Program-made: the position numbers and the translations under genes
The notes under the pieces: model-generated
Databases searched by the model: none
What the model saw: the letters and a program-made list of their open reading frames with translations, nothing else
What the model was told of the DNA's origin: nothing
Shown here: one piece after another, positions 8,701 to 64,000 of the stretch
How positions within the stretch are numbered: position 1 is the first letter of the stretch
Layout of the letters: each line of letters starts with the position of its first letter
DNA from: a virus
Lineage: Duplodnaviria; Heunggongvirae; Uroviricota; Caudoviricetes
Direction: 5' to 3' (one strand)
DNA length: 64,000 bases
Virus record (IMG/VR): IMGVR_UViG_2861084961_000001

Positions 8701-8899
8701 ACGGGAGAAGGAAACACTTCATGAAATCAGTAAGTGGCCGGAGTTCCCTGAGTACTGGAAGCCTAAAACGCGGGCTAAGTTAGAGCGGTTAGGGTTGGTT
8801 GCAAACGTTTCTGAAACGAAGTGTTCGGCCAACTACCAGTTAACTGATAAAGGGAAAGTATTGCTACAGCAATTAGTAGAATCAGGAGCGTTAAAATGA
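8684..8899 (+). CDS. Hypothetical small protein (71 aa)
   Basis: ORF with overlapping start/stop in small-gene cluster. Confidence 0.35.
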   Translation: MIVLSKREKETLHEISKWPEFPEYWKPKTRAKLERLGLVANVSETKCSANYQLTDKGKVLLQQLVESGALK

Positions 8900-9048
8900 T
8901 TCCATACATCTCATTAGCTTTTATGGGTGGCTTCCTTATCGGCTTCGGCATCTGTCGTGATTTAATTAAGCAGGAACTTAAAACCAAAACACTGTGCATC
9001 GGAAAGCGTGTGTATCGGGTAGTTCATGAAACAAAGGTTAGAAAATGA
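8896..9048 (+). CDS. Small single-pass membrane protein (50 aa), paralog of 8521..8700
   Basis: MIPYISLAFMGGFLIGFGIC then GKRVYRVVHET motif. Confidence 0.4.
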   Translation: MIPYISLAFMGGFLIGFGICRDLIKQELKTKTLCIGKRVYRVVHETKVRK

Positions 9049-9335: not shown

Positions 9336-10111
9336 AAATACAATAATAAGTATTTACTTACTTATCTTTTATGTATAAGATGACTTTGTTTTCGTTGAGA
9401 CGCGACTGTTTGAACTTAAATACAAGTGCAAACGAAGAAGTCTATCTGGCAGTAGCCTAATAAGCCAAACACCAGCGAGGTCAGTTTCCAGCCTCGTTAC
9501 CGAAATGGGACACACTGAGCGAGTGTGATTGCAGAACGCAGGAGGGAACATTCATGTTCCCTCCGATGAAGTAACAGAATGGGCGGTTGGTATATTTTCA
9601 ACTCCATATGACTCCCGGATTCTTAGCCACTGACCGCCCATCCTGTTACGTCATTTTGTTCAATTATGTCGTTTATACTGGGTTAAAAAGCGGCGACGTA
9701 GCCCGGCTGGTATGGTTAGCCAGCACACAACGTTGAGGCCATTACATTTTTATCAATTCTAAGGTTCTATTCACAGAGATACCGGCGAGCGTTGATATGT
9801 AACATGTTGGGCAAACATTCAATCGGAGTAGTGGCCTCAACGTTGTGAAGACAGGATTGTTGTGTAGGTTTAACCACTGTTGCCATTGGTGCCTGTTTTC
9901 ACAACAAATGATTCCATACATCACATTGTATAAATAACAAAGTAGGTGCTGTCCTCAGAAACATCATCTACTTAAAGATTTAGCCTTCTATTGAGCGAAG
10001 TCGAAAGCGTCTGGCACTAACGTAAAGTGCAAGTAGCGGTGCGTTTCCTGGCAGAAACTAACACCGCCGCGATTGGCACTGTTGAGTAATAAATACTGTC
10101 AGTGCTGAATT

Positions 10112-10186
10112 GATGGTGTAGCTCAGCGGTAGAGCAGTTGGCTGTTAACCAACTGGTCGGTGGTTCGAATCCACCCACCATCGCCA
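10112..10186 (+). tRNA. tRNA-Asn (anticodon GTT)
   Basis: Cloverleaf by eye: acceptor gatggtg/caccatc, anticodon loop ctGTTaa, T-loop ggttcgaat, CCA end. Confidence 0.8.
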
Positions 10187-10191
10187 ATTTA

Positions 10192-10278
10192 GGGGAGTTA
10201 GTCCGTAGAGGTAGCGGTGTAGACTGTAAATCTACTGTCATGGCGACTCGGGTGGTTCGACTCCATCACTCCCCACCA
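10192..10278 (+). tRNA. tRNA-Tyr (anticodon GTA), type II with long variable arm
   Basis: Acceptor ggggagt/actcccc, anticodon loop ctGTAaa, T-loop ggttcgact, CCA end. Confidence 0.75.
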
Positions 10279-10282
10279 AATT

Positions 10283-10358
10283 GCCGGTTTAGCTCAGTTG
10301 GTAGAGCGCCTGCCTTGTAAGCAGGATGTCAGCGGTTCGAGTCCGTTAACCGGCACCA
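10283..10358 (+). tRNA. tRNA-Thr (anticodon TGT)
   Basis: Acceptor gccggtt/aaccggc, D-arm agctcagttggtagagc, anticodon stem cctgc/gcagg with loop ctTGTaa, CCA end. Confidence 0.75.
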
Positions 10359-10582
10359 ATACAACGATAAGATCATTACGGTTAATCGTCGTTCATGTGC
10401 ACAATGACTGGTCGAAAGGTAGTGATCTTACCGTTGTGGTGGATTCGCAGACTGATGCGATAGCTTTCTTGGATGTTAGGGAAATGCGGCCGCAAATCTT
10501 CCCTTTCGCGAGCGGTGATCGTCCGTAGTCCTAATTGGCTGCACCGTATGCCGGAGATTCAGTACCGGCCACCACAACGGCC

Positions 10583-10669
10583 GGAGAGTAGGGAGCATGG
10601 TGCTCAAGCTGTCTTGAAAACCGCCCCATTGCGCAAGCGATGATGGTTCGATTCCATTACTCTCCGCCA
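10583..10669 (+). tRNA. Type II tRNA-like gene, anticodon TGA (Ser?), imperfect stems
   Basis: Acceptor ggagagt/actctcc, loop ctTGAaa, T-loop ggttcgatt, CCA; anticodon stem and variable arm pair poorly, may be non-canonical or pseudo. Confidence 0.5.
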
Positions 10670-10674
10670 GACAC

Positions 10675-10748
10675 AGCGTTGAGCGGTTTGGCCTTTTAAT
10701 CACCCAGATTAAGACTCCGCTAACATAAACCAGACCGCTCAACGCTGT
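10675..10748 (+). terminator. Long stem-loop (acagcgttgagcggtttgg ... ccagaccgctcaacgctgt) after tRNA cluster
   Basis: 19 bp inverted repeat directly after last tRNA. Confidence 0.45.
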
Positions 10749-10819
10749 GATAGACAATTACGGCAGACGTTCTTAACCATAGCTTGCTAACATCCTAGCA
10801 ACACTTTTTTCAGCGCAAA

Positions 10820-10845
10820 ATTCAAAGGGGCTTCGGCCCTTTTTG
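10820..10845. terminator. Bidirectional terminator hairpin aaaggggcttcggcccttttt
   Basis: GC stem gggc/gccc with ttcg loop flanked by A-run and T-run; lies just 3' of minus-strand gene 10846..11619. Confidence 0.65.
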
Positions 10846-11619
10846 TTAATGATTGCCTAGATATGATTTTAGTTCTTCTTTAATGATTAGTGAGTATTCT
10901 AAAATATCACTTAGTAAAAATTTTGCTCTGTTAAAATAACCACCAAAAGAACCAAAAATTTCAGATGGTCTTTCTAAGAGCATTACAATATCATCTTCTT
11001 GCACTTTAGCAATGTAACTTCTAACAGCTCTTTCTCCAATAACTCTTTTCTTACCGTTTATTTCAGATTCATCTAAAACCTTATTTATAAATTTTTCTGT
11101 ATCATTGAATCGTCCACTATTGTGTACTATTGTATGTCTTAGTAGTTCAATTAGCTTGATGTTAAAGCGATAGTTTTTACCAATCTTGTTGTTTATTTCT
11201 ATCTCTTTGAAGCCAGGTATTTTATTTCTGAAAATTTTAATTATTTTTTTCGATGGGTTACTTTTTGCTTTTAATAATTTGTAATAAACTTCCCCTTTCC
11301 CAATGTCATCATCTTCAACCTTACCAAAATAACTTGAGGACCAGAAATCATTTCGAACACATACAGTATAGACATATATTGCCTCAATATAGTCTTCCAG
11401 TAACTCATAGGCTTCAGTAATAACCCACTGATATTGTTTATTTTTCAAAACATTACACAATCTTATCTTTTCTTCTAAATCAATGGCGCTGTTACCTATC
11501 TCTAATGTTGAACCTGTATATGGGTTTGAACATAAATGGCGAGCTAACGTTGTGCCACACTTAATCTTAATAGTTTCATTAATATTAATAATAGTATCTG
11601 GATTCTGTGCATACTCCAC
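10846..11619 (-). CDS. AT-rich hypothetical protein (257 aa), possible HEPN/Abi-like
   Basis: Clean minus-strand ORF with GGAG RBS; markedly AT-rich compared with flanks; contains R-x4-H motif (LLRHTIVHNSGR). Confidence 0.5.
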   Translation of the reverse strand: MEYAQNPDTIININETIKIKCGTTLARHLCSNPYTGSTLEIGNSAIDLEEKIRLCNVLKNKQYQWVITEAYELLEDYIEAIYVYTVCVRNDFWSSSYFGKVEDDDIGKGEVYYKLLKAKSNPSKKIIKIFRNKIPGFKEIEINNKIGKNYRFNIKLIELLRHTIVHNSGRFNDTEKFINKVLDESEINGKKRVIGERAVRSYIAKVQEDDIVMLLERPSEIFGSFGGYFNRAKFLLSDILEYSLIIKEELKSYLGNH

Positions 11620-11925
11620 TTCTTTTAGAAGACGTTTATATTTTTCTTTGTTGTATCATTTATCTGATTTAAATAGTCAAAAAGTAAAGATATTTCTTCT
11701 CTAAATTCGTTGTATTTTTTTCAATCAAAGAATCAGACAACTTACCAATCATTAAAACCTCTATAAAATGTACATTTCAAGGCAATCCTTACTGTAATCT
11801 ATTGTCATAATCACTTCAATTGTTTACCAGTCAATCAATAAGTTACTACATACTTATCAAAAAAATCTGTTTGTAGTATAGTCTGATATGTTCGAATCAA
11901 TATTTATAAAGGTATTTGTTAGGTT

Positions 11926-12171
11926 ATGACGATCACTATCTACGGACGAGATAACTGCTCATACTGCAAACGTGCAGTCGAGCTGGCGAAGCAACTAAAG
12001 GGACATGGCTACGGTGATTATGAGTACATCGACATCACCACTGCCGGTATCGACAAGGAAAAACTAAGTGAAATTGTTGGTAAACCGGTAGAGACTATCC
12101 CCCAGGTGCTGATCGATGGCCAGCCGATTGGCGGATACACAGAACTGGCTGCATACGTCAGCACCCTCTGA
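11926..12171 (+). CDS. Glutaredoxin (Grx1/NrdC-like)
   Basis: 81 aa; CSYC active site near N-terminus; PVETIPQVLIDGQPIGGYTEL closely resembles E. coli glutaredoxin 1. Confidence 0.8.
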   Translation: MTITIYGRDNCSYCKRAVELAKQLKGHGYGDYEYIDITTAGIDKEKLSEIVGKPVETIPQVLIDGQPIGGYTELAAYVSTL

Positions 12172-12381
12172 TTTTAACGGCTCACAGGAGCCGTTTTTAT
12201 TCCCACCAAACTCACTCCTGTTTCCCTTAAAATTCAAAAAACGACGTCTAAATGATTCCATACCTACTATGTATGGAATCATTACTGAAAATGAGTTACT
12301 TTTACTCTTGATCCTATAAGAATCTATGCCTAATATACTGTTTACTTATACAGTGCATCGGCGTAACTCGGTGATTGTCAT

Positions 12382-13483
12382 ATGAAAAATAGCTTTGACA
12401 GAGCACGCGCTGCGGAGAACACCTCAAAAGAGGCGATTGAGTATCTCGAAAGAGCATCTCAAATGCAGGCCGTTATGATCTCCCAGGTCAGCAATGACAT
12501 GAGATTCTCGGACGCATTCATGTTATTCACTCGCTTATCTCTGCTGATAACCAGACGTCGGCCAGAGATCGCTGTTCATTGTATTTTGATACATGTTTTG
12601 CCGCACATTGCTGATGTAAAAGTAAGTGACATTAATAGGTTCATGGTGAACCAACTGGTCAACCCCCTAATACTGGATGGCAAAATTGTTATGGGCCGCC
12701 GCGTTTTCTCTCTGATGAAGCAGTTCCTTAGCTGGTGCGCCTTCCAGGGGATGATAGACGTGTCACCGTTAAACGATATGTCACTAAACAAAGTTGCCGG
12801 TGGCGCAAAGCCCACACCTCGCGAGCGTAAGCTGACCGACGCAGAGGTATGGGTGTTCTGGAATATATGGGACTACTTCAATGTGTGCGCTGGTACAAAA
12901 TGGGCGGCCAGGCTGTGTCTTGTATCAGCAAGACGACCTGACGAAGTACTGCGGGCTAAAAAAGTGAGTTCAATCTTAAGCGTGGAGTTTGGAATCAAGG
13001 CAAGAGAAACAAGTCAGCACGTGAGCATTCGCTGCCTTTAAGCACATTAATGCGCACATGCATTGAAGAGTTGTTCGAATACGGTAAAAACAGCCAGTGG
13101 CTCGTGCCTTCGAATAAAAAATCGGGAAAGACCTTCCTATGTCTAAAGTGGCAATAGCCCAGGCATTACGTCGTATTCTGGAACGACCAGAACTGATGGA
13201 GCTTGAGCCATTTACACCCCGAGATTTGCGCCGTACTGCGCGTAGTTACTTCCCAGCATTAGGCATAAGCCAGGAGGTATCACGCAAAATCATGAACCAC
13301 AGTCTTGAGGGGATAGATCGGGTCTACGACCGGCACGATTATATGGACGAGATGCGAGACGCCTTAGAAAGTTTCTCGACGTACATCGCATCAATCGTAG
13401 AGCAACCGGATTTAGACGAAATTGACCACAAATTCAAGGGAGATCGTCTATCAACAGAGCTTATTCGTGTAAATTTTTCATAG
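12382..13483 (+). CDS. Tyrosine recombinase/integrase (P4-like), frame broken twice (around 13041 and 13139)
   Basis: C-terminal HSLPLSTLMRT..., FTPRDLRRTARSY..., IMNHSLEGIDRVYDRHDY resemble integrase catalytic region (R..H..R..Y); three frames all shifting -1. Confidence 0.6.
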
Positions 13484-13864
13484 AGACTTTATGGCCTCAA
13501 CAACCTTTTGTGATGCGCCTTTCTCTTTACCGAATCGCTCGTTATATGCAGCAAGAACCTGTTTTTCGTCCTCGTTAAGAGGAGCGGTGCCTTCTTTGTA
13601 TAAAAATGCTGCGAGTTCAGGTTGGCGTTCTTCCAGCACCATCATCATAAGACGACTTGGCTCAATACCCAGCGCCAGCGCCAGCGGACGAACCTTATCG
13701 ATAGGCAAAGGAATTTTGCCACTTTTAATTAAAGAAAGGTTGTTGGCATTTTTATAACCAATAAGTCTGGCTATTTGGGCCTGACTCATAGGTGAGGATT
13801 CAATCAGCCCTGCGATAAAAGCAGCATAGCGACTTTCTATAAATTCAATCTTGTTGTCAGACAT
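13478..13864 (-). CDS. XRE-family HTH transcriptional regulator (CI/Cro-like repressor candidate)
   Basis: Helix-turn-helix SQAQIARLIGYKNANNLSLIKSGK; divergent from downstream operon; palindromic ggtaagtgcttacc in its upstream region. Confidence 0.7.
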   Translation of the reverse strand: MSDNKIEFIESRYAAFIAGLIESSPMSQAQIARLIGYKNANNLSLIKSGKIPLPIDKVRPLALALGIEPSRLMMMVLEERQPELAAFLYKEGTAPLNEDEKQVLAAYNERFGKEKGASQKVVEAIKSL

Positions 13865-14426: not shown

Positions 14427-16534
14427 ATGTCTAAAAAACGTTCCATCAAAGAGGTTCAGGACTTCCGTGACAGTGTAAAACGAGTAGTCGCTCTCCTTTC
14501 AGGTAAAAACATCCCTGTTGCAGAACGAGGGGACGACGCTTATGTACGCTATAACGATGATGGAGAGCCAATTCTCGTAAACATCCCATCAATCCCGGAT
14601 AACGCAACACCGGCATTGATGAATGCTGTGCGCGGATTTCTCGATCATGAGGTTGCTCACATTTTGTTTACCGATATTCGTGTGTCCAACAAAATGAGAG
14701 AAAAAGGACGCGTTCCTTCCTGGTCACTATGGAATGCCTTAGAAGACGTGTTCATCGAGCGAAAAATGGGGCAGGTCTTTAACGGAACGAGACGTAATCT
14801 GATGGCAACTCAGCGCCTTATAATCGAAAAAGTCTTTAAACCAAAGGCTTCAGAGGCTATTGATTATTGTGGCAAAGATCAGCGCGCGCTTTTTCTAAAC
14901 TTCTTTCTCTGTCCGGTTGTAAGAGCCTGGGATGGCCAAGCACCGTTCGTAGATTTCATGGATGAATACTGGCCTGTCATTGAGAAACCAATTTCATTAT
15001 TAAAAGAACATGGTATCGATGTGGCCGTGCGTAACATGTCTTGCACCGAGGATTGTGTAAAGGTGGCTGCGACCATAGCTAAGATCCTCAAAGACACTGA
15101 AAGTGAAAGCAAAGGTAAGGAGTCAGCTCCGGGAAAAACTTCCGATCCTTCAGATACTGACCAAACGGATGCCTCTGGAGAAAACAATGAAGACAACGAA
15201 GATCATGAGACACCCTCAGCGTTAGATAATCACAAATCTATCGAATCAGAATCACACAGTAAGCACAAACATGATAATAACGACAGTGATGATTCAGATA
15301 ATTCTGAATCATCAGAAACAATATTCGATGATACAGAAAATGATAAAGAGGTATCAGATTCTGATGCTTCTGATAACGCGGCGTCAGAATCATTAACCGC
15401 TGACCACGAAAAAAGAAAAACGACAGAAGACGGCTCTTCAGATATTCCAACTCCGTCAAAAATGAGTCTGGAAGAGGCTTTAGAGGAGCTGGATAGCATA
15501 GAAGATGAAGTCGGAGGCATGACAGAAGATGCTCTATCCGAAACGATTAAAAGCGAGTTAACAGAAAGCTCGAAAGCGAATACAGGCCATACAATCGCTC
15601 ATACGACTTCATCGGCTCGATTGATCAGGCAGAAGCCCATATCAAACGGCTTATTAAAACATTCTCCGATATTGATTTAGGAGGATATCCAATCAGCCGC
15701 TATCGCATCGTTCCTGAAGGCAACCAGCTCTTCGACAAATATATTGAAAAGCATCTTTCGTCAGGTGTTTCGTCGACGCTGGCAAAAGACCTGGAGCGAG
15801 CAATAGCAAGCAGAAACAGAGTTCAGTTTATACCGGGCCAGCGTCGGGGGCGCATTCATGGTTCTAGTATCTACAGATTAGCAATGAATGATGATCGCGT
15901 GTTTCGTAAAAAAGAAGAATCTAAAGCCGTTAACGCCTGTGTTCAACAAGTGATTGATTTATCAGGTTCAATGAGTGGTATAACGATACAATTGGCTCTT
16001 GCAAGTGCATATACCATCGCCGATGCCCTTGATCGAATAAATGTTCCCAACATTATCACCGGCTTCACTACATTTGGTAGTCATATGGCGGCAGGAGAAC
16101 TTAAGGCTGTCAAGTATGAGTTCTCTCGCTTTGAATCTTTAATGCTACCTATCATCAAAAATTGGAATGAAAAGGCAAATTCTCGCGAAGTTCGCTCACG
16201 TATGGGGTGCGTAGGCTACACATTCCCACTTCTTAATAACGTGGATGGTGAAAGCATAGCCAGCCTTGCATCGTTATTTTCTGGTCGCATGGAGGACAAG
16301 AAGATCATGCTTGTTCTAAGCGATGGCGCGCCGTGGGCTGTTGGGAGAGGTTTTGACGCTCATTTGCGTTCGGTTGCGAAGCAAATTGAAACGCAGACTG
16401 ACATTGATTTGATGGCAATTGGCATCATGACTGACGCACCGGAGAGATTTTACGCAAACCATGCCCTGGTAACGAGCGTTGATAGTCTTGGTTCATCTGT
16501 AGTTACTGAACTATCTCGTATCATTTTGAAGTGA
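14427..16534 (+). CDS. CobT-like vWA-domain protein with acidic Ser/Asp-rich linker; frame broken near 15550-15600
   Basis: C-terminal vWA MIDAS motif VIDLSGSMSG; long D/E/S-rich low-complexity region; conserved AACAAAGGATTAGCCATG start context; second frame is open upstream of 15884. Confidence 0.6.
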
Positions 16535-18043: not shown

Positions 18044-21000
18044 ATGAAGGCTCTGATGGTTCGAACTGACTTCTCTCTTGGGGAGTCGGCTCTAAAAGCA
18101 GAAAACGCGGTGAAGATTGCCAGAGAAGCTGGCTACACCGCTGTAATTTCGGCAGATAGCATGAATATTGCGAGTGTTATTCCACTACAACGTGCCGCTG
18201 GTGACGACATGGCGGTTATTTGTGGTGTGAAACTAAACATTGTTGATGATCCCACATACGAGCACCGGGCTAAACTTGCTAAAGAGTCTATGGGATGTAT
18301 GGAATCATTAGAGCGTGGGCGGAACTACTCCTTTACCGCTCTAATTAAAAATGAGCAGGGATATCGAGACATCTGCGAACTAATGACGGCGGCCAACACA
18401 CGAGAACAGTTCTACTTTGTACCGCGTCTCTCGCTCGAACAGTTGGTTTCTACATATGCCAAAGGCAACATCATCCTGCTAACTTCCGACATCGGTAGCG
18501 TGTTCCAACGCAACGATTTTGCAAAAATCATAAGCTCACTGATTACAGCGGGTGGAAAAGACAACTTCTATAGTGTGGTTTATCCGCACCCTACCCATTC
18601 TACGACCAGATTAACGTCCGGGCGATGAAAGTCGCCAGCGCACTGAAAATAGAGCCAGTAGCGTTCTATCCCGCTTATTACGAATCGATCGACGATGCAG
18701 ACATTAAAGACATTGCGCACATGGTTACGAACAACATCAAAATCGACCAGCCGCATCGTCTGCGTATCCCCACCAGCGAGATAACGCCGTCAATTGTCGC
18801 CGCCATCTCCTTGAGGCGCTGAAAGCCTTCTCCGTTCGCATGGATGTGCCGGTAACAGCTGCAATGGCCTCAACAACGCAGGATACCATTATCGATGCCT
18901 GCACATGGCGCTGGCATGAATTGCCACCAGCACTGCCAAAGATGGCAGACGACGAGCCTGCAACTCTGATGAAACTGGCCGTTGCTGGGCTGCGTAAACG
19001 TCTTACCACAAAAGAGTTTGGCTACACACCACCGGCTTCTGAGAACAGGGTTTATGTTGAGCGACTTAAGTACGAAATGGATACGCTGACTCGCCTGGGA
19101 TTCTGTGGTTACTTCCTGATGGTGCGCGATCTGATGAATCATAGTCGTGAAACTGGCATTCCCGTTGGGCCTGGTCGTGGTTCCTCTGCTGGCTCTTTGG
19201 TGGCATGGTGCATAGGCATAACCAACGTCGACCCAATCCGTCACGGTCTTCTGTTTGAACGTTTCATCAACCCTGAGCGTCTCGACTTGCCGGATGCGGA
19301 TTTGGACTTCAGCCAGGCACGTCGCCATGAAGTGATCGAGTATCTGAATGAACGCTACGGCGAAGATTACGTTGCGGGTATTCCGAACTTCACATATCTG
19401 GGCGCAGCCTCTGCACTACGTGACACCGCTCGTATTTATGGTGTGGAGTCCGCAGATATGGCGGTATCAAAGAACTGAAGAACGTCGAGGATGATAGCCT
19501 TCCATTGGAAGAACTGCGCGAACAACTGGCAAGTCTCGACAAATACGCAACAAAATATCCTGATGCATTCAATGCAGCCTGCAAGTTACAAAGCCTTATG
19601 CGTGGCTTTGGTAGACATGCGGCAGGGATGATCGTAGCAGGTGTTCCTCTGACAGAACGTACACCGGTTGAACGACGTGGTGACGCGCGTTGTATCGCAT
19701 TTGACAAGCGTTACTGCGAGGCTATGGGCCTAATTAAGCTGGACGTGCTTGGCCTGGCAACTCTCGATTTGCTCGATAGTGCAAAACGCTACATAAAAGA
19801 GAACACAGGTGAAGATATCAATCTTGATGCCATTTCTCTTGAAGATCGCAAGGTGCTGGATGGTTTTGCTGCTGGGTACACTCAAGGTGTTTTCCAGCTT
19901 GAATCAGGCCCAATGCGCAAGCTGCTTAAAGATTTAGGTGGTGGAATTGAGCCAATGAGCTTTAAAACGGTCGTCGCTACGACTGCGCTCTTCCGGCCGG
20001 GGCCAATTCAGTCAGGCATGTTGGATGACTATGTTTCTGTAGCCAAAGGCTTTATGAAGCCGGAATCATTACACCCCGTTCTTGATGAACTTACCGCAGA
20101 AACAAATGGCGTGATTCTCTATCAGGAACAGACGATGAACGCGACTCGATTGCTTGCTGGCTTCACAATGGCTGAAGCTGACGGTGTTCGTAAAGCGATC
20201 GGCAAAAAGGACATGGAAAAATGAAGAGCATGGGCGAGAAGTTCATCGTTCAGGCTCAAGCTGGCTGGATAGACGTTGAGCTGGAAGATGGCACTACACA
20301 GCGCATTCACCGTGCGGAACATTTTAAATGCGAAGACGGAACTCTGAAAACTGTCGAAGAGGCACTTGAGTACGGCGCAAAACTACCTATAAACGCAGTA
20401 CGCGTTACAGCGTCACATCCAGGGCTATCAGAGATGAAAGCGAAGGAGATCTGGACCGCATTCGAAAAAAATGGAGCCTACCAGTTCAACAAATCACACT
20501 CTGTTGCTTACTCCTTAATCAGTTATCAATCTATGTGGTTGAAAACTCATTATCCCGCAGAGTTTTCGCTGCTGCTCTCACTATTCTTGGCGAAGATAAA
20601 CACCAGGGGCTGGTTAAAGATGCGCTGACCTATGGTATTCGCGTATTGCCACCAGACGTTAACGTGTCATCTAACCGAATCGAGATCCGCACGCTTGAAG
20701 ATGGCAGCCAGGTGCTGTATGCGCCCTTCTCTGCTGTGAAGGGGTGTTCTGAGAATGGCTGCCAGGCCATCATGAGAGCGCGAGAAAGGGTTGGCGGCAA
20801 ATTCGAGTCACTGGCGCAATTCGAAGAAGCTGTCGAGAAACGTGCCTGTAATAGTCGAGTGCGCGAATCACTGCAAAAAGTAGGTGCGTTTGCGTCCATA
20901 GAGCCAGGTAGTCTGCCAGCAACTGATCCAGAGCGTCTCCGCGACCAAGCAGAATTGATGGGAAACCTTGTCATAGATGCAGTTAAAGCCTCACGTCCGT

Positions 21001-21556
21001 TTGAGATGAACCCCAAACGTTCGGCTGAGATTAACGTGCTCATGACACGGATGGCGGCTGAAATGGGCTTAGGTGATGAACTAATCCGCCCAGCATTGGT
21101 ATTAAGCCGAAAATCATGATCATTCTGGACAATGCGAACGGCAATGATGCTCGAACCGGTTACTTCATGGAGAACGGATACGACGATTTTAAGGCCAAGC
21201 TATTGACGGCTGGAGATTTACGCATGGGCGATCTCTATGTCACAGGCGTTTGCAAAAAGGTGAAAGACAAAGAAAAGGACTACACCAAAGACGAGATCGG
21301 CCAGTTCACCGACTTTATGCGTGAAGAGATCAATCTGGTGCGTCCGACCTATGTGCTGACGTGTGGCAGCCGGGCAACGGCATTGTTTAACAACAAAAAC
21401 AAGCCATCCGATTTGGTCGGCAGGAAGGAGTATCTTCCAGACCTTGACGTTACTGTCTTTTACGGGTTTAACCCCAACATTCTTTACTTCAGACCTGAAG
21501 AGGGAGAACGACTAGAAGCGATATTAGCCGACGTAGCAGAAACTATTAAGACGTGA
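18044..21556 (+). CDS. dnaE: DNA polymerase III alpha-like (DnaE-type) replicative polymerase, split into 7 frames by -1 shifts
   Basis: PHP-like N-terminus, [42 protein letters not shown] polymerase core motif; summed length ~1170 aa matches DnaE; consecutive ORFs 18044,18625,18840,19505,20221,20535,21116 each shift frame by -1. Confidence 0.7.
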
Positions 21557-35436: not shown

Positions 35437-37346
35437 AGTTTTTAAAACTCCAGGTTGAGAATTTTATGGCTATCGCCAGCGCGGAGGTCGAGTTAGATCA
35501 GCGTGGTTTAGTGCTAATTCAGGGCATTAATAGTGATGATAGTTCCGCATCAAGTAATGGCTCTGGAAAGTCAACTCTAATGAATAGCCTGATGTGGTGT
35601 CTTTATGGCGAAACAGCTCATGGTGTGAAGGGTGACGATGTGTTGTCTACCGACCATGAAAAGAACTGTCGTGTTGCAGTAACCATCGAGGATGAAGGCA
35701 AGAGATATGCGATCATTCGTCACCGTAACACAAAGAGTTCAAAAATCGTCTTATCGTTCGTGGTGAAGATGGCGATATGACGAAAGGCAAAGATGCGCTG
35801 ACGCAGGAGTTCGTCGAGCGTCTGATCGGTGCATCTAAAGAGGTTTTCATGGCTTCCATCTATGCGAGCCAAGAAGCTATGCCAGATCTACCTGGAATGT
35901 CCGACAAAAACCTCAAAACCATCGTAGAAGAAGCCGCTGGCGTTGACAGACTGACACGCGCCTACGCTATTGCTCGTGAACGAGCTAACGCAGCTGCCGC
36001 ACGCATGGACGTGGTTAAAACCAAATTGGAGTCGACAATCTCGACCATTGAGGCAACACAGTCAGAAATTGAGTCCGCGAAAGCCTCCTCTGAATCATGG
36101 GAACAAGAGCGTTCTAAACGTTATGACGATGCCCTAGCTGGGCTGGCAAGTGCCGAAGTTGAGTTAACGGAAGTTGAACTTGAGATCCGCACTCTTCCCG
36201 AACAGATCCGTGATACCGAGAAGGCAATCGAAAGTGAGCGCAAAAAGTTAGCCTCAAAAGAAGAACATGATGCCAAGTTGCTCAAAGTGCGTGGTGCGAT
36301 AACTGATATTCGGGCAAGCATCAAAGCTACAGAAATAGTCAGGCTGATGCAATGAGCCGCGCGCGCAATTTTAAGACCAAAGCAGAAGAGGTTGGTACTA
36401 AAGTAGGATCACCATGCCCTACTTGTGGCAAAGCCTACTGCGAAGAAGATCTATCAACGGTGAAGGAGAATTTCATTGAACAAGCACGTCAGGAAATTGG
36501 TCAGGCGAAGACACTTGCAGAGGCAATGGCTAAACACAAAACGAATCTTGAGAAGGCGTTAAGCATTGAGTCTGCCCTTGTTAAAACGACACCTGATGTA
36601 ACGGCTATCATTGCCCGGATTGAAGAGCTTACTAAACAACTTTCATCTTTGCGTCATCGTGAGAAGGAGGTTGTTGCTATTGAGTCTCTTGTGACTCGTG
36701 CTCGTACTGAGGTCGATCGTATATCAAAAGAGATTAATCCGTTTATTGCTCTTATCGCCAGACACGAAGATAACCTGGTATCCAGTAAGTCTACCTTCAA
36801 GTCCTTAAAAGATGAGTTGAAGGCTATTCAGGAACAAACGTTGCTATTGGAAAAAGCTCGTCAGGTCTACTCTCCTGCCGGGGTGCGTTCTCATATTTTG
36901 ACGTCTGTTACGCCTTTCCTGAATACACGCACTGCCGAGTATCTCAATACGTTGTCTGACGGGAATATTACTGCTGAGTGGTCGACGATGGATGTCACTA
37001 AAAAGGTGAGTATCGCGACAAATTCAACATTAGTGTGCAGAAGAAAGGTTCAAGTAAGTCGTTCCAAACCCTCTCTGGTGGTGAGAAGCGGAAGGTTCGC
37101 ATTGCGTGTTCTTTGGCATTGCAGGATCTGGTTAGTAACCGGGCGAGTAAAAACATCGATTTGTTTATCGGCGACGAAATTGACGATGCACTCGATACAG
37201 CCGGTCTTGAACGCCTCATGGGTATTCTGGAGTCCAAAGCTCGCGAGCGAGGTACTGTGCTGATTATCTCCCATAAAGAGATGAAGTCATGGTTCCGGGA
37301 AACTATTACGCTGGAAGTTAAAGAGGGGCGCAGCTATGTCGTTTAA
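35433..37346 (+). CDS. SbcC/Rad50-like ATPase, split into 4 frames by -1 shifts
   Basis: Walker A GSGKST, coiled-coil, zinc-hook CPTCGK, ABC signature LSGGEKR, D-loop DLFIGDEIDDALD across ORFs 35433, 35777, 36352, 37035. Confidence 0.7.
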
Positions 37347-61082: not shown

Positions 61083-61379
61083 ATGTCTATTTTTAACCCA
61101 ATGAACCTTCAATACCGCAACATCAGTGTCTTGCGAATTAAGATAGTGTGTATAGGTTATACATGCAAGTGCATAACTCTGTGGATAACTCAGGAAGGAA
61201 AAAGTAGCTTCCGCGCAATTTAGGCCAGACAAGGCTTTCGCAAAAATCAACGGAGAGAAAAAAATTTGTTAAAAATAACGTTTGTTGGAATTGTATATAT
61301 TTATGCCTTTCAATAGTTAGCATCTTATTAACATCTTTTTTAAGAGATAGAGTTCAAAAATATATAGCTTCAACATATA

Positions 61380-61395
61380 CTGTATGCATATACAG
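61380..61395. promoter_or_regulatory. LexA (SOS) box CTGTATGCATATACAG upstream of UmuD'-like gene
   Basis: Perfect CTGT-N8-ACAG palindrome 19 bp upstream of ATG 61414. Confidence 0.8.
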
Positions 61396-61413
61396 TATTA
61401 AGAGGCGAGTATT

Positions 61414-61803
61414 ATGGGCTTCCCTTCTCCTGCGGCGGATTATGCTGAGAGCCGTATTTCTCTTGATCAGCAGATAATTAGACATCCTTCAGCGACCTAC
61501 TTCTTGAGGGCAGCTGATAGCCATCATCGTGAGGGAATATTGCAGGGTGCATTGCTGGTGGTCGATTCCTCACTCACTCCTGTTGATGGATCTCTTCTTG
61601 TATGTGCTCTGGATGGGGAATATCGCGTAAAAAGATACCGGAAGTATCCACGTCAGCATCTGGAGGATTTAAGAACTGGTAAGAAGGAAGCATTGCCAAA
61701 GGATGATGATGGATGCACGGGCAGCAATGCCGTGTTTGGTGTGATCACTCACATTATCAACGACGCAAGAAGTGGCGAGTTTGATGATTGTCCTGTGATG
61801 TAG
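61414..61803 (+). CDS. UmuD'-like protein (HumD-like; starts at the position corresponding to the UmuD self-cleavage site)
   Basis: MGFPSPAADYAESRISLDQQIIRHPSATYF matches UmuD residues ~25 onward; Ser-containing ADS motif; no umuC-like gene follows. Confidence 0.7.
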   Translation: MGFPSPAADYAESRISLDQQIIRHPSATYFLRAADSHHREGILQGALLVVDSSLTPVDGSLLVCALDGEYRVKRYRKYPRQHLEDLRTGKKEALPKDDDGCTGSNAVFGVITHIINDARSGEFDDCPVM

Positions 61804-61840: not shown

Positions 61841-62941
61841 TCACACTGCGCGGAATGCGATTTCGCCAGGTATTACTTCACCTTGCCAATACATTTGGGC
61901 AGCAACGCGATCTGCGAGGTCACGATAAATAGCCGTAAATTCGCTATCTGGACGACTAATAACGGTTGGTGTTCCGTTATCCAGATCCTCACGAAGAGAG
62001 ATATGAAGTGGCATTTGGCCTAACAACTGCGTGTTGTATTTCTCGGCCAGTTTCTGTGCGCCACCGGTGCCAAAAATTGGCTCGTGATGACCGCAGTTAC
62101 TGCAAATATGCACACTCATGTTTTCGACGATACCTAGTACCGGCACTTCGACTTTTTCGAACATCACAATGCCTTTCTTCGCATCGATCAGCGCGATGTC
62201 TTGCGGCGTAGTTACCACAACCGCACCAGTTACAGGAATGTTCTGCGCCAGCGTCAATTGAATATCACCAGTGCCCGGCGGCATATCGAGAACGAGATAG
62301 TCCAGATCAGGCCACAGTGTTTCCTGCAACATCTGCATCAGCGCCTTGCTGGCCATCGGTCCACGCCACACCATTGCATTGTCGTCGGTGACCAGATAAC
62401 CAATAGAGTTGGTTGCCAGGCCATGAGACATGATAGGTGCCATGTGAGTACCGTCCGGTGAGGTTGGACGTTGGTTTTCCGCACCCAGCATGGTTGGAAT
62501 TGATGGACCGTAGATATCGGCATCCAAAATACCAACTTTCGCACCTTCAGCAGCCAACGCCAGTGCCAAGTTTACTGCTGTGGACGATTTGCCTACACCG
62601 CCCTTGCCTGAGCTGACGGCGATGATGTTCTTAACGCCATTAATGCCTGGTTGGTTTTTGACGCGCTTAAGCGTGGCAATGTTGTACGACAGCTTCCAGT
62701 CGATAGCCTTTGCGCCAGTGATACGGAGCAGATCACCACTACATTGCTCTTTCAGGTCTTCAAAAGGCTTATTCCACACGAAAGGCATGATTAGTTCGAC
62801 ATGCAGTGTGTCATCCATCAACGCAACATGGTGTAACGCTTTAAGCGTAGTCAGGTTGTGCTTCAGGGTTGGGTGCTGAAAATTAGCCAGCGTACCGGCT
62901 ACCATTGCTCTCAGGGCATCCGGCGATTTGGACTCGCTCAT
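61841..62941 (-). CDS. apbC: Fe-S cluster carrier ATPase ApbC/Mrp
   Basis: 366 aa; P-loop GKGGVGKS, CxxC; chromosomal gene divergent from metG as in E. coli. Confidence 0.9.
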   Translation of the reverse strand: MSESKSPDALRAMVAGTLANFQHPTLKHNLTTLKALHHVALMDDTLHVELIMPFVWNKPFEDLKEQCSGDLLRITGAKAIDWKLSYNIATLKRVKNQPGINGVKNIIAVSSGKGGVGKSSTAVNLALALAAEGAKVGILDADIYGPSIPTMLGAENQRPTSPDGTHMAPIMSHGLATNSIGYLVTDDNAMVWRGPMASKALMQMLQETLWPDLDYLVLDMPPGTGDIQLTLAQNIPVTGAVVVTTPQDIALIDAKKGIVMFEKVEVPVLGIVENMSVHICSNCGHHEPIFGTGGAQKLAEKYNTQLLGQMPLHISLREDLDNGTPTVISRPDSEFTAIYRDLADRVAAQMYWQGEVIPGEIAFRAV

Positions 62942-63098
62942 CCCGTCTCCTTTATTTTAATTTGCGCAATTGTCGCCTTGTAGTGTACTCCAGCTACGAC
63001 ATTTAATCATTTATGAGAAATGCTGTTATCACATGGCAGACATAAGGCCATTTTGTTACTATCAAGCCCCTTTTCACTACAAAGAAGTAATGCCTACT

Positions 63099-64000
63099 AT
63101 GACCCAAGTCGCGAAGAAAATTCTGGTGACGTGCGCGCTGCCGTACGCTAACGGCTCAATCCACCTCGGCCATATGCTGGAGCACATCCAGGCTGATGTC
63201 TGGGTTCGTTACCAGCGAATGCGCGGCCACGAGGTTAATTTCATCTGTGCCGACGATGCCCACGGTACGCCGATCATGCTGAAAGCACAGCAGCTTGGTA
63301 TCACACCGGAACAGATGATTGGCGAAATGAGCCAGGAACACCAGACTGATTTCGCAGGCTTTAACATCAGCTATGACAACTATCACTCGACGCACAGCGA
63401 AGAGAACCGCCAGCTGTCTGAGCTTATCTATACTCGCCTGAAAGAGAACGGTTTTATTAAAAACCGCACTATCTCTCAGTTGTACGACCCGGAAAAAGGC
63501 ATGTTCCTGCCGGATCGTTTTGTGAAAGGCACCTGTCCGAAATGTAAAGCGCCAGATCAATACGGCGATAACTGTGAAGTTTGCGGCGCGACCTACAGCC
63601 CGACTGAACTGATTGAGCCGAAATCGGTAGTTTCTGGCGCTACGCCGGTAATGCGTGATTCTGAACACTTCTTCTTTGATCTGCCCTCTTTCAGCGAAAT
63701 GTTGCAGGCATGGACCCGCAGCGGTGCGTTGCAGGAGCAGGTGGCAAACAAAATGCAGGAGTGGTTTGAATCTGGTCTGCAACAGTGGGATATCTCCCGC
63801 GACGCACCTTACTTCGGTTTTGAAATTCCGAACGCGCCGGGTAAATATTTCTACGTCTGGCTGGACGCACCGATTGGCTACATGGGTTCCTTCAAGAATC
63901 TGTGCGACAAGCGCGGCGACACTACCAGCTTCGATGAATACTGGAAGAAAGACTCCACCGCCGAGCTGTACCACTTCATCGGTAAAGATATCGTTTACTT
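63099..64000 (+). CDS. metG: Methionyl-tRNA synthetase (5' portion, continues beyond window)
   Basis: [43 protein letters not shown] with HLGH motif and zinc knuckles CPKC...CEVC; essentially identical to E. coli MetG as recalled. Confidence 0.95.

What the first reader, a model, noticed from the sequence alone, without database searches (positions are those of the whole stretch)
12382..13483. Tyrosine integrase next to the tRNA cluster inside a plasmid-like element
An integrase with a recognisable catalytic region (R..H..R..Y context) lies about 1.7 kb from the tRNA genes. Phage-plasmids normally replicate extrachromosomally, yet this window ends in chromosomal genes. The integrase could be a remnant of an integrative ancestor or could mediate the apparent chromosomal association. 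Its frame breaks follow the same -1 pattern as the other genes, so it may be intact.
Basis: partly seen in the sequence, partly recalled or inferred. Interest (0 to 1): 0.45.

Follow-up and report, generated by a model that had tools for sequence, protein, structure and literature searches.

The report
Plasmid recombinase with lox-like site
The "integrase" is a real gene, probably intact once two sequencing-type frame errors are discounted, on a phage that lives as a plasmid; it most likely acts on a small lox-like site just upstream to keep the plasmid as single circles, and nothing here points to insertion into the chromosome or a tRNA gene.

Summary
The gene at 12382-13483 is a tyrosine recombinase. 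Its two frame breaks are one-base losses in A7 runs. The window has 55 such one-base deletions against 5 insertions relative to a 99%-identical closed plasmid, so they are probably sequencing errors. The corrected 367-aa protein passes the Pfam integrase model. It keeps R185, K211, R284, H307 and Y316; the first His is Arg in the whole family. dN/dS is 0.02-0.07.

The chromosomal reading fails. The window is collinear with ~110-kb circular SSU5-like phage-plasmids, which carry the apbC-metG genes at its end as cargo. In 5,426 complete E. coli genomes the gene occurs 254 times, never on a chromosome. No tRNA-derived repeats exist.

The protein lacks an arm-binding domain. A perfect 13-7-13 inverted repeat lies 130 bp upstream (12251-12283). 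An equivalent site precedes the homolog in all 63 species-level loci examined, including solitary copies on Pantoea and Rahnella megaplasmids. The arms change symmetrically and the spacer varies.

Best reading: a Cre/loxP-like multimer-resolution module, probably LexA-controlled in the phage-plasmids. This is untested. Three isolated half-sites remain unexplained. Ordinary gene; modestly new site prediction.

The parts
12382..13483 (+). Tyrosine recombinase gene ('integrase'), 367 aa once two one-base homopolymer deletions are restored
   Evidence: PF00589 39.8 bits; catalytic R185/K211/R284/H307/Y316; dN/dS 0.02-0.07; AF2 model pLDDT 82.9 whose best fold match is lambda Int residues 75-356
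12958..12963 (+). A6 run that is A7 in intact orthologs; first apparent frameshift
   Evidence: window-wide bias of 55 deletions to 5 insertions
13116..13121 (+). A6 run that is A7 in intact orthologs; second apparent frameshift
12251..12283 (.). Predicted recombination site (lox-like): AATGATTCCATAC-CTACTAT-GTATGGAATCATT. It has 13-bp perfect inverted arms and a 7-bp asymmetric spacer, and lies 99-131 bp upstream of the recombinase ATG
   Evidence: one copy in the window, 0 expected; an equivalent site lies upstream of the homolog in 63/63 loci with symmetric arm changes and 12 spacer variants; homology between >98%-identical relatives ends at its left edge
12336..12355 (.). LexA-box-like motif TACTGTTTACTTATACAGTG, overlapping a weak promoter (TTGATC 12308-12313, 17 nt, TAATAT 12331-12336) in front of the recombinase gene
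   Evidence: It is one of only two such motifs in 64 kb; the other precedes the umuD-like gene. It is conserved in the Escherichia, Yersinia, Kluyvera and Klebsiella elements. The promoter was read by eye and scores 8/12, below the scan threshold
8895..8907 (+). Isolated exact copy of the 13-bp arm (half-site), pointing toward the core site; function unknown
9907..9919 (+). Isolated exact copy of the 13-bp arm (half-site), about 200 bp upstream of the tRNA cluster; function unknown
18297..18309 (-). Isolated exact copy of the 13-bp arm (half-site) inside the dnaE-like gene, pointing toward the core site; function unknown
13478..13864 (-). Convergent HTH regulator gene overlapping the recombinase 3' end by 6 bp (annotated 'putative repressor' in phage Cyrano). 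It is a neighbour in the phage-plasmids only, not part of the conserved recombinase-plus-site unit
   Evidence: phrog_8; absent next to the megaplasmid homologs

Best explanation
The gene encodes a working tyrosine recombinase of an SSU5-like phage-plasmid. In this window it looks broken only because two A7 runs were read as A6.

The protein has the core-binding and catalytic domains of lambda/P4-type integrases. In place of an arm-binding domain it has a short helical N-terminus. It should therefore act like a 'simple' recombinase such as Cre.

Inferred mechanism: two monomers bind the two 13-bp inverted arms of the site at 12251-12283. Two such sites synapse, and strands are exchanged across the 7-bp spacer.

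Each replicon carries one site. The natural substrates are therefore the two directly repeated sites of a plasmid dimer or multimer. The job is to return the multicopy plasmid prophage to monomers so that it segregates stably. A possible second job is to circularise incoming phage DNA.

In the phage-plasmids the gene appears to sit behind a LexA-repressed promoter. Expression would then be low in the lysogen and rise with the SOS response.

Shown: gene integrity, family membership, plasmid-only distribution, and the universally conserved adjacent site.

Inferred: binding to that site, strand exchange, dimer resolution as the biological role, and LexA control.
For: Integrity:
- Both breaks are A7-to-A6 changes.
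- The whole window shows 55 one-base deletions against 5 insertions relative to pEA26_1, 41 of them in homopolymers of 4 or more.
- Intact 1104-bp genes occur in 251 of 252 E. coli carriers.
- dN/dS is 0.017-0.073.

Family:
- PF00589 hit at 39.8 bits.
- Invariant R185, K211, R284 and Y316; H307 nearly invariant.
- The AF2 model matches lambda Int 75-356 at TM 0.73-0.75.

No arm-binding domain:
- No PF13356 hit, whereas the nearest outgroup integrases (34% identity or less) have one.
- Residues 1-120 of the model are all helical.

Extrachromosomal distribution:
- 0 of 254 places are on E. coli chromosomes.
- 928 PLSDB plasmids carry one copy each, 931 places in all.
- None of 64 species-representative contigs exceeds 1 Mb. 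Named plasmids among them include pPANA1, pA and pC3_1.
- Homologs at 45-47% identity are solitary genes, without phage or mobile-element context, on a 723-kb Rahnella replicon and a 508-kb Pantoea plasmid.

Site:
- A perfect 13-7-13 inverted repeat, unique in the window, with 0 expected by chance.
- An 11-7-11 site lies 46-254 bp upstream of the gene in 63 of 63 loci. The arms are TGATTCCATAC in close relatives and TGACTCCAGAC in distant ones, with both changes mirrored in both arms.
- There are 12 different AT-rich spacers, in either orientation, and the flanks are not conserved.
- The upstream glutaredoxin gene has its own GC-rich terminator, so the repeat is not that terminator.

LexA:
- The motif occurs only before this gene and before the umuD-like gene.
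- It is kept in Klebsiella, Yersinia and Kluyvera elements.

Context from the literature:
- Cyrano, a 97%-identical relative, is a plasmid of 5.5 copies per cell that is induced by ciprofloxacin (PMC9928086).
Against: - No experiment links this protein to this site or to dimer resolution.
- SOS-controlled expression is not the obvious design for a housekeeping resolution function.
- Three or four isolated exact half-sites, conserved within 10 kb of the gene in the phage-plasmids, have no role in a plain Cre-like model.
- The variable cargo region abuts the left arm exactly, and one close relative has the spacer reverse-complemented. Both hint at reactions other than resolution.
- The first catalytic His is replaced by Arg. 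The change is family-wide and so presumably tolerated, but its effect is untested.
- One homolog lies on a 905-kb Biostraticola contig of unknown replicon type.
- Palindrome-next-to-gene predictions for Cre-type enzymes were confirmed experimentally in only about half of cases (PMC10250229).
Confidence: 0.6

Rival explanations
1. Cargo-exchange or cointegration platform. The recombinase and its site mainly mediate intermolecular recombination between replicons or circular DNA carrying a compatible site. This swaps or captures the accessory ('moron') genes that lie directly left of the site, in an integron-like way and under SOS control. The isolated half-sites would be relics or accessory sites of such events.
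For: - Homology among >98%-identical elements (window, Cyrano, PhiR41_1, an E. coli draft contig) stops exactly at the outer edge of the left arm.
- Each of these elements carries different genes there, such as a YafO toxin, an Ail/Lom protein, phrog_35492 and others.
- PhiR41_1 has the spacer inverted.
- A LexA box lies in front of the gene, as for integron integrases. The comparison with integrons is from my own knowledge; the box itself is.
- Inward-facing conserved half-sites are clustered within 10 kb of the gene.
Against: - No second full site was found in the window or in the 114.7-kb relative, so no cassette is bounded by two sites.
- A conserved functional site next to any permissive insertion region would give the same homology break.
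- The megaplasmid homologs keep the site but show no half-sites and no obvious cargo array.
Confidence: 0.15
2. True integrase. The element occasionally integrates into the host chromosome, at a tRNA gene or elsewhere, using the inverted repeat as the attP core.
For: - The protein belongs to the lambda/P4 integrase lineage by fold and by weak profile hits.
- It sits next to a repressor-like gene, as in lysogeny modules.
- SOS control would suit excision.
- Rare chromosomal regions resembling phage-plasmids have been reported, though they were attributed to recombination not driven by integrases (PMC12977533).
Against: - 0 of 254 occurrences are chromosomal in 5,426 complete E. coli genomes.
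- The 43-bp site region matches only plasmids.
- There is no arm-binding domain.
- No tRNA-derived repeats were found.
- Most relatives have no tRNA nearby.
- The chromosomal-looking genes at the window's end are plasmid cargo.
- Solitary homologs with the same site lie on megaplasmids.
Confidence: 0.08
3. The main role is circularisation of infecting linear phage DNA, as Cre does for P1 (from my own knowledge of P1). Plasmid maintenance would be secondary.
For: - The element is a functional phage in close relatives: Cyrano virions are produced (PMC9928086), and PhiR41_1 is recorded with E. coli K-12 MG1655 as its host.
- The site architecture is Cre/lox-like.
Against: - The same recombinase-plus-site unit is conserved on non-phage megaplasmids.
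- The terminase and portal genes lie more than 40 kb from the site in pEA26_1, so the site is unlikely to lie regularly within a terminal redundancy.
- The packaging mode was not determined here.
Confidence: 0.08
4. The gene is a decaying pseudogene in this isolate, and the frameshifts are real.
For: Two frameshifts are present in the sequence as given.
Against: - Both are A7-to-A6 changes, with only one substitution elsewhere in 1,104 bp.
- The same error type hits genes across the window, including the dnaE-like and cobT-like genes, at a ratio of 55 to 5.
Confidence: 0.04

Closest known systems
Cre/loxP of phage-plasmid P1, and Cre-type relatives Dre/rox and Panto/pox
   Same: A single tyrosine recombinase without an arm-binding domain. 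One palindromic site with 13-bp arms and an asymmetric spacer lies close to the gene. The system is carried by a plasmid prophage. The expected role is multimer resolution (role of Cre: PMC7969092; site architecture: PMC10250229).
   Different: It is not a sequence relative. No PDB chain, Cre included, matched the protein by phmmer at E up to 1. Cre chains rank below lambda Int, Tn1549 Int, Xer and IntI in the fold search, at E about 0.1 and 10-15% identity. The spacer is 7 bp rather than 8, so published lox-like site hunts with an 8-bp filter would not have picked it up (PMC4957104, PMC10250229). The first catalytic His is Arg. The gene appears to be LexA-controlled. Activity is untested.
P4-type / lambda-type phage integrases (PF00589 with PF22022 and an arm-binding domain PF13356)
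   Same: Best fold match is lambda Int residues 75-356 (TM 0.73-0.75). There are weak hits to the P4-type central domain PF22022 and to NCBIfam PRK09692. The nearest sequence outgroup consists of arm-domain integrases at 25-34% identity.
   Different: It lacks the N-terminal arm-binding domain. No integrated copies, no tRNA target and no att duplications were found. Its site is a simple symmetric core without nearby arm-type repeats.
Plasmid and chromosome dimer-resolution systems using tyrosine recombinases (XerCD/dif-cer, single-recombinase XerH/difH, XerS/difSL)
   Same: One inverted-repeat core site per replicon, with a 6-8 bp central region, and conservation on large low-copy replicons. 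XerH and XerA are among the fold matches. Background: PMC5357621.
   Different: The recombinase is plasmid-encoded and adjacent to its site. The site sequence is unrelated to dif, as far as I recall the dif sequence. There is no evidence of FtsK or accessory-protein control.
Integron integrases (IntI)
   Same: A tyrosine recombinase with a LexA box in its promoter and variable cargo directly next to its site. IntI4 is among the fold matches. LexA control of IntI is from my own knowledge.
   Different: No attC-like cassette array was seen, and the site is a plain double-stranded palindrome. The IntI-specific insertion was not examined.

Membership tests
Tyrosine recombinase superfamily (Pfam PF00589) | Profile match above the curated cut-off | tested here: met
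   The corrected window protein scores 39.8 bits against a cut-off of 27.1. The intact ortholog scores 39.9 bits.
Tyrosine recombinase superfamily (Pfam PF00589) | Catalytic residues R-K-H-R-H/W-Y | tested here: inconclusive
   R185, K211, R284, H307 and Y316 are present and invariant or nearly so in 35 homologs. The first His is Arg281 (PRDLRRT) in all of them. Five of six are canonical; the effect of His to Arg is untested.
Tyrosine recombinase superfamily (Pfam PF00589) | Two-domain fold (core-binding plus catalytic) | tested here: met
   AF2 model with pLDDT 82.9. Foldseek probability 1.0 to lambda Int, Tn1549 Int, Xer and IntI.
Heterobivalent phage integrases (lambda/P4 type) | N-terminal arm-type DNA-binding domain | tested here: not met
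   There is no PF13356 or other arm-domain hit. The outgroup integrases have about 60-90 extra N-terminal residues that align to gaps. The model's N-terminus is helical with no beta-sheet.
Heterobivalent phage integrases (lambda/P4 type) | Element found integrated in the chromosome, flanked by att duplications (often a tRNA 3' end) | tested here: not met
   0 of 254 places are on chromosomes. The site region matches plasmids only. The longest tRNA-derived matches are 10-12 nt, within the shuffle range of 10-14.
Heterobivalent phage integrases (lambda/P4 type) | Partner excisionase (Xis/RDF) | not tested
   No adjacent small gene was examined for this. The only conserved neighbour is an HTH regulator on the opposite strand.
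Cre-type recombinases (sequence family of Cre, Dre, Panto) | Sequence or structural kinship with Cre | tested here: not met
   phmmer found no PDB hit at E up to 1. A profile search found only weak integrase and XerH fragments. Cre chains score E about 0.1 or worse in Foldseek, behind more than 35 other chains.
Simple (lox/FRT/dif-like) site-specific recombination modules, a functional class | Single site near the gene made of two inverted recombinase-binding arms around a 6-8 bp asymmetric spacer | tested here: met
   A 13-7-13 site at 12251-12283. It is conserved in 63 of 63 loci, with symmetric arm changes and 12 spacer variants.
Simple (lox/FRT/dif-like) site-specific recombination modules, a functional class | The recombinase binds and recombines that site; resolves replicon dimers | not testable with these tools
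   This needs binding and excision or resolution assays.
SSU5-like phage-plasmids (element that carries the gene) | Collinearity with circular ~100-115-kb plasmid prophages related to SSU5/pHCM2/pMT1 | tested here: met
   63.2 kb of the window is collinear with pEA26_1 at 97.7-99.9% identity. There are matches to phages Cyrano, PhiR41_1 and CMS-2020a. Cyrano is described as SSU5-like (PMC9928086).

The most novel reading that the evidence does not exclude
The recombinase, its lox-like site and the conserved inward-facing half-sites form an SOS-switched cargo-exchange platform. It shuffles accessory-gene modules between phage-plasmids, and perhaps other replicons carrying compatible sites. This would explain why the hypervariable moron region begins exactly at the site's left arm, and why spacer orientation flips between near-identical elements. 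It would be an integron-like gene-capture device built on a different recombinase clade and a double-stranded palindromic site.
Probability: 0.12. Interest if true: 0.7.

Novelty: new member of a known kind. Interest (0 to 1): 0.35.

Why it matters
For the finding as written, the answer is deflationary. There is no sign of a chromosome junction, a tRNA att site or a relic integrase. Annotated 'integrases' on SSU5-like phage-plasmids should not be read as evidence of integration.

The useful by-product is a concrete, testable prediction. A clade of 360-380-aa arm-less tyrosine recombinases, found on at least 928 plasmids of Enterobacterales, appears to have its own compact 33-bp target. These plasmids include SSU5/pHCM2/pMT1-type phage-plasmids and Pantoea and Rahnella megaplasmids. 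Two natural specificity variants exist: TGATTCCATAC and TGACTCCAGAC arms.

If confirmed, three things would follow:
- It would explain how these multicopy plasmid prophages stay monomeric.
- It would add a 7-bp-spacer recombinase/site pair to the Cre-like toolbox.
- It would give a handle on the cargo hot spot next to the site, where toxins and virulence-type genes are found.

Tried and rejected
1. tRNA att hypothesis. I searched each of the four tRNA genes against the rest of the window. The longest matches were 10-12 nt, no better than shuffled controls. tRNA scans of 16 related loci showed 13 without any tRNA. Rejected.

2. Chromosomal junction at the window's end. Rejected, because apbC-metG lie inside closed plasmids and a phage genome, and the window's copy is plasmid-type by identity.

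3. Chromosomal attB in E. coli. The 43-bp site region matched only the carrier plasmids. Sensitivity is limited to near-full-length matches, so a very degenerate attB cannot be excluded.

4. Long contigs that carry close homologs (up to 897 kb). The look-up tool collapsed them with similar places, so I could not inspect them. The 905-kb Biostraticola contig was only checked for the site and for tRNAs, and its replicon type is unknown.

5. Inverted repeat as a terminator. Rejected: the upstream gene has its own GC-rich terminator at 12176-12195, and stem sequences would not stay invariant across genera.

6. Inverted repeat as an operator of the neighbouring HTH repressor. Unlikely, because the site follows the recombinase gene onto megaplasmids that lack that neighbour.

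7. Genome-wide operator model for the half-sites, on the pattern of P1 C1 operators (from my own knowledge). Not supported: all five copies in the 114.7-kb relative lie within 10 kb of the gene.

8. Identity with known Cre-type systems (Panto/pox and the 2023 YR set). Panto is 41% identical to Cre with a 13-8-13 site, and those searches required 8-bp spacers. A full-text search for the arm sequences found only unrelated primers.

9. The second match of the int-region query reported in the PhiR41_1 record, as a possible terminal redundancy. The record is circular with a single int gene in the 100 kb fetched. Not pursued further.
Full report
**What is at the coordinates.** ORF listing and three-frame translation show one recombinase-like reading frame at 12382-13483 (+). 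It is broken twice, each time by a shift of -1. The closest database match is plasmid pEA26_1 of Escherichia albertii (NZ_CP117610.1, 114,713 bp, circular), at 99.4% identity. There the gene is an uninterrupted 1104-bp 'site-specific integrase'.

A base-by-base alignment shows only three differences in the gene: one substitution and two one-base gaps. Both gaps are A7 runs read as A6, at window 12958-12963 and 13116-13121.

Across the window, 63.2 kb is collinear with pEA26_1 at 97.7-99.9% identity. It carries 55 one-base deletions against 5 one-base insertions, and 41 of the deletions fall in homopolymers of four or more. That bias is the signature of homopolymer under-calling. Real decay would not hit replication and structural genes alike in this way.

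**Is it a tyrosine recombinase?** With one A restored at each run, the 367-aa protein hits PF00589 at 39.8 bits (cut-off 27.1). It hits the P4-type central domain PF22022 weakly. The uncorrected fragments do not reach PF00589.

In alignments of 27 and 35 homologs, R185, K211, R284 and Y316 are invariant and H307 is nearly so. The His of the HxxR box is Arg (PRDLRRT) in every member, so this is a family trait and not damage.

An AlphaFold model built on the 35-sequence alignment has mean pLDDT 82.9. Its best solved-structure matches are lambda integrase residues 75-356 (TM 0.73-0.75 on the target), then Tn1549 Int, Xer proteins and an integron integrase. Cre is far down the list. No PDB chain matches by sequence alone.

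Pairwise dN/dS against the Cyrano, Yersinia, Kluyvera and Buttiauxella orthologs is 0.017-0.073. The gene is under strong purifying selection.

**What element carries it, and is there a chromosome junction?** The region matches 514 PLSDB plasmids, mostly ~100-115-kb non-mobilizable plasmids of Escherichia and Klebsiella. It also matches nine phage records, including Cyrano, PhiR41_1 and CMS-2020a. Cyrano (pLF82) is described as an SSU5-like phage-plasmid at 5.5 copies per cell that is induced by ciprofloxacin (PMC9928086). pLF82 shares most of its genes with pHCM2 and pMT1 (PMC2941450).

The 'chromosomal genes' at the window's end are apbC (61841-62941, -) and the start of metG.
- In pEA26_1 and in phage PhiR41_1 both genes are full length and sit inside the circular element, followed by more phage genes.
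- The window's copy is 95-99% identical to 222 plasmid copies.
- It is only about 88% identical to the apbC-metG locus found on every E. coli chromosome.

So the window does not run into a chromosome. It contains a captured paralogous segment that is part of this plasmid lineage.

**Is the recombinase ever used for chromosomal integration?** In 5,426 complete E. coli genomes the gene occurs in 252 genomes at 254 places, all on plasmids and none on a chromosome.
- A scan of one genome per species (GTDB representatives) found 64 loci in Enterobacterales. None was on a contig above 1 Mb, and several were on named plasmids.
- A protein search of PLSDB found 928 plasmids with essentially one copy each (931 places). 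The hosts were Klebsiella 344, Escherichia 228, Enterobacter 92, Pantoea 74, Yersinia 63, Salmonella 49 and others.
- The four tRNA genes 1.7 kb upstream are complete, CCA-ended tRNA genes of the element.
- No tRNA-derived repeat longer than chance exists in the window.
- 13 of 16 related loci have no tRNA within 6-10 kb of the gene.

The integration and tRNA-att interpretation is not supported.

**A conserved lox-like site.** The family lacks the arm-binding domain PF13356. Its nearest outgroup, P4-type integrases at 34% identity or less, carries that domain. The model's first 120 residues are helical. An arm-less recombinase is expected to use a simple site.

Such a site lies 99-131 bp upstream of the ATG: AATGATTCCATAC-CTACTAT-GTATGGAATCATT at 12251-12283. 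It has perfect 13-bp inverted arms and a 7-bp asymmetric spacer. It occurs once in the window, with none expected by chance.

I then scanned the 400-500 bp upstream of every homolog fetched. All 63 full-length species-level loci have an 11-7-11 site 46-254 bp upstream of the gene.
- Seven loci with close homologs (57% identity or more: Yersinia pestis, Kluyvera, Buttiauxella, Chimaeribacter) have TGATTCCATAC arms. Citrobacter and Klebsiella phage-plasmids fetched separately have them too.
- Fifty loci with distant homologs (45-52% identity: Pantoea, Rahnella, Erwinia, Xenorhabdus, Photorhabdus, Ewingella, Hafnia, Morganella) have TGACTCCAGAC arms.
- The two differences between the arm types are mirrored in both arms.
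- Six loci have one or two asymmetric mismatches.
- Twelve different AT-rich spacers occur, in both orientations (for example CTATTAA and TTAATAG).
- Flanking DNA is not conserved.

Invariant symmetric arms with a free spacer next to the gene are what a recombinase core site looks like. Neither a terminator nor a host-factor site would behave this way. The upstream glutaredoxin gene has its own GC-rich terminator at 12176-12195.

In Rahnella victoriana (723-kb replicon) and Pantoea vagans (508-kb plasmid) the gene and site form a solitary unit among ordinary metabolic and transport genes. There is no phage, repressor or mobile-element context. The unit therefore travels with large plasmids as such.

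**Most likely function.** One site per replicon is the arrangement of plasmid multimer-resolution modules, of which Cre/loxP of P1 is the model (PMC7969092). So are a recombinase without arm binding, an exclusively extrachromosomal distribution and strong purifying selection.

I therefore think the protein resolves dimers of the multicopy plasmid prophage at 12251-12283. It may also help circularise incoming DNA. These steps are inferred; nothing here demonstrates binding or strand exchange.

For Cre-type enzymes, sites predicted simply as palindromes near the gene were confirmed in about half of tested cases (PMC10250229). Here the cross-genus conservation and symmetric arm changes make the assignment considerably stronger than a single-locus prediction.

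**Regulation.** A LexA-box-like motif, TACTGTTTACTTATACAGTG, lies at 12336-12355. It overlaps the -10 region of a weak promoter that I read by eye (TTGATC, 17 nt, TAATAT), 27-46 bp before the ATG.

The pattern TACTGT-N8-ACAGT occurs only twice in 64 kb. The other copy (61378-61397) lies directly before the UmuD-like S24 peptidase gene, a classic SOS gene, and serves as an internal positive control. The motif is kept at the same position in Yersinia, Kluyvera and Klebsiella phage-plasmids and, more weakly, in Buttiauxella. It is absent from the megaplasmid homologs.

The recombinase is thus probably SOS-controlled in the phage-plasmids. That fits ciprofloxacin induction of Cyrano (PMC9928086), but it is not an obvious feature of a housekeeping resolution system.

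**Unexplained features.**
- The exact 13-bp arm also occurs alone at 8895 (+), 9907 (+) and 18297 (-). These three copies share AATGATTCCATACATCnCAT.
- In the complete 114.7-kb pEA26_1 the 13-mer occurs only five times (0.003 expected), all within 10 kb of the gene.
- The isolated copies point toward the core site. They are retained at equivalent positions in Citrobacter and Kluyvera elements and in Klebsiella phage pJN2-26, whose int region is only about 73% identical at the DNA level. The downstream copy in the dnaE-like gene is also kept in the Y. pestis locus. All four of these elements, Y. pestis included, have a further copy inside the recombinase gene.
- The megaplasmid loci have none.
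- Among >98%-identical E. coli elements, homology ends exactly at the outer edge of the left arm. Different accessory genes lie beyond it in each element. PhiR41_1 has the spacer reverse-complemented.

These observations leave room for a second activity, module exchange or capture at the site. I give that about a 12-15% chance of being the main role.

**Comparison with what is known.** Functionally the module resembles Cre/loxP and the single-recombinase Xer systems. By descent it belongs to the lambda/P4 integrase branch and has lost the arm-binding domain. It is not a Cre-family member.

Published searches for new lox-like systems required an 8-bp spacer and Cre-type proteins (PMC4957104, PMC10250229), so they would not have found it. 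Full-text searches for the arm sequences, and for SSU5/pMT1/pHCM2 recombinase function, found no description. The phage-plasmid literature lists tyrosine recombinases as persistent SSU5-group genes without assigning a site or a role (PMC7969092). It also states that phage-plasmids typically lack integrases (PMC12977533).

**Verdict.** The gene is probably intact. The chromosomal and tRNA interpretation is not supported. The gene itself is ordinary and widely annotated. The adjacent conserved site, its two natural specificity variants, the likely LexA control and the dispersed half-sites are modestly new and directly testable.

Noticed in passing
window 61841-64000 (apbC 61841-62941 on the - strand; metG from about 63099 on the + strand): The phage-plasmid carries a full-length ApbC/Mrp gene and a methionyl-tRNA synthetase gene as cargo. 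Related copies occur on 222 E. coli plasmid records and in phage PhiR41_1. The window's copy is about 88% identical to the E. coli chromosomal locus, so it is an older or foreign capture and not a recent pick-up.
   Followed up: partly
window 61378-61397 and 61414-61803: A near-consensus LexA box (TACTGTATGCATATACAGTA) lies directly upstream of a UmuD-like S24 peptidase gene. It is the only other LexA-type motif in the window besides the one before the recombinase gene.
   Followed up: partly
window 8895-8907 (+), 9907-9919 (+), 18297-18309 (-): Three isolated exact copies of the 13-bp arm of the lox-like site all point toward it. Equivalent copies are found in the Citrobacter, Kluyvera and Klebsiella elements, and the downstream one also in the Y. 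pestis locus. They occur nowhere else in the 114.7-kb relative. Function unknown.
   Followed up: partly
window 10680-12250 (including ORF 10846-11619 on the - strand, phrog_35492, and glutaredoxin 11926-12171): This is a hypervariable accessory-gene slot between the tRNA cluster and the lox-like site. Near-identical relatives carry different genes here: a 1317-bp gene in pEA26_1, the highly expressed CYRAN_43 in Cyrano, a YafO toxin in an E. coli draft contig, and Ail/Lom and PhoH in Citrobacter. Homology resumes exactly at the left arm of the site.
   Followed up: partly
L080 (Escherichia phage PhiR41_1), about 130 bp upstream of int at locus position 36640: The 7-bp spacer of the site is the reverse complement (ATAGTAG) of that in 98.6%-identical relatives (CTACTAT), while the arms and the right flank are unchanged. 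Across genera both spacer orientations also occur (CTATTAA and TTAATAG).
   Followed up: no
whole window, for example cobT-like 14427-16534, dnaE-like 18044-21556, and 7573, 16871, 18020, 49796, 51404: Many genes are split by one-base deletions in homopolymers: 55 deletions against 5 insertions relative to pEA26_1. The source assembly appears to be unpolished, so any apparent pseudogene in it should be treated with caution.
   Followed up: yes
window 10112-10669: The cluster holds four complete CCA-ended tRNA genes (Asn-GTT, Tyr-GTA, Thr-TGT, Ser-TGA). Cyrano has three (no Tyr), Klebsiella pJN2-26 has two, and the Y. pestis locus has none within 6 kb. The tRNA set is therefore variable cargo.
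   Followed up: partly
L011 (Rahnella victoriana CP089920.1, 722,843 bp), L012 (Pantoea vagans CP028350.1, 507,680 bp), L050 (P. ananatis pPANA1): Homologs at 45-50% identity, each with a TGACTCCAGAC-N7-GTCTGGAGTCA site, are solitary conserved units on very large plasmids of Erwiniaceae and Yersiniaceae, with no phage context. Chimaeribacter genomes carry two family members each: one on a phage-plasmid-like contig and one with a slightly asymmetric site (L062, L066, L070).
   Followed up: partly
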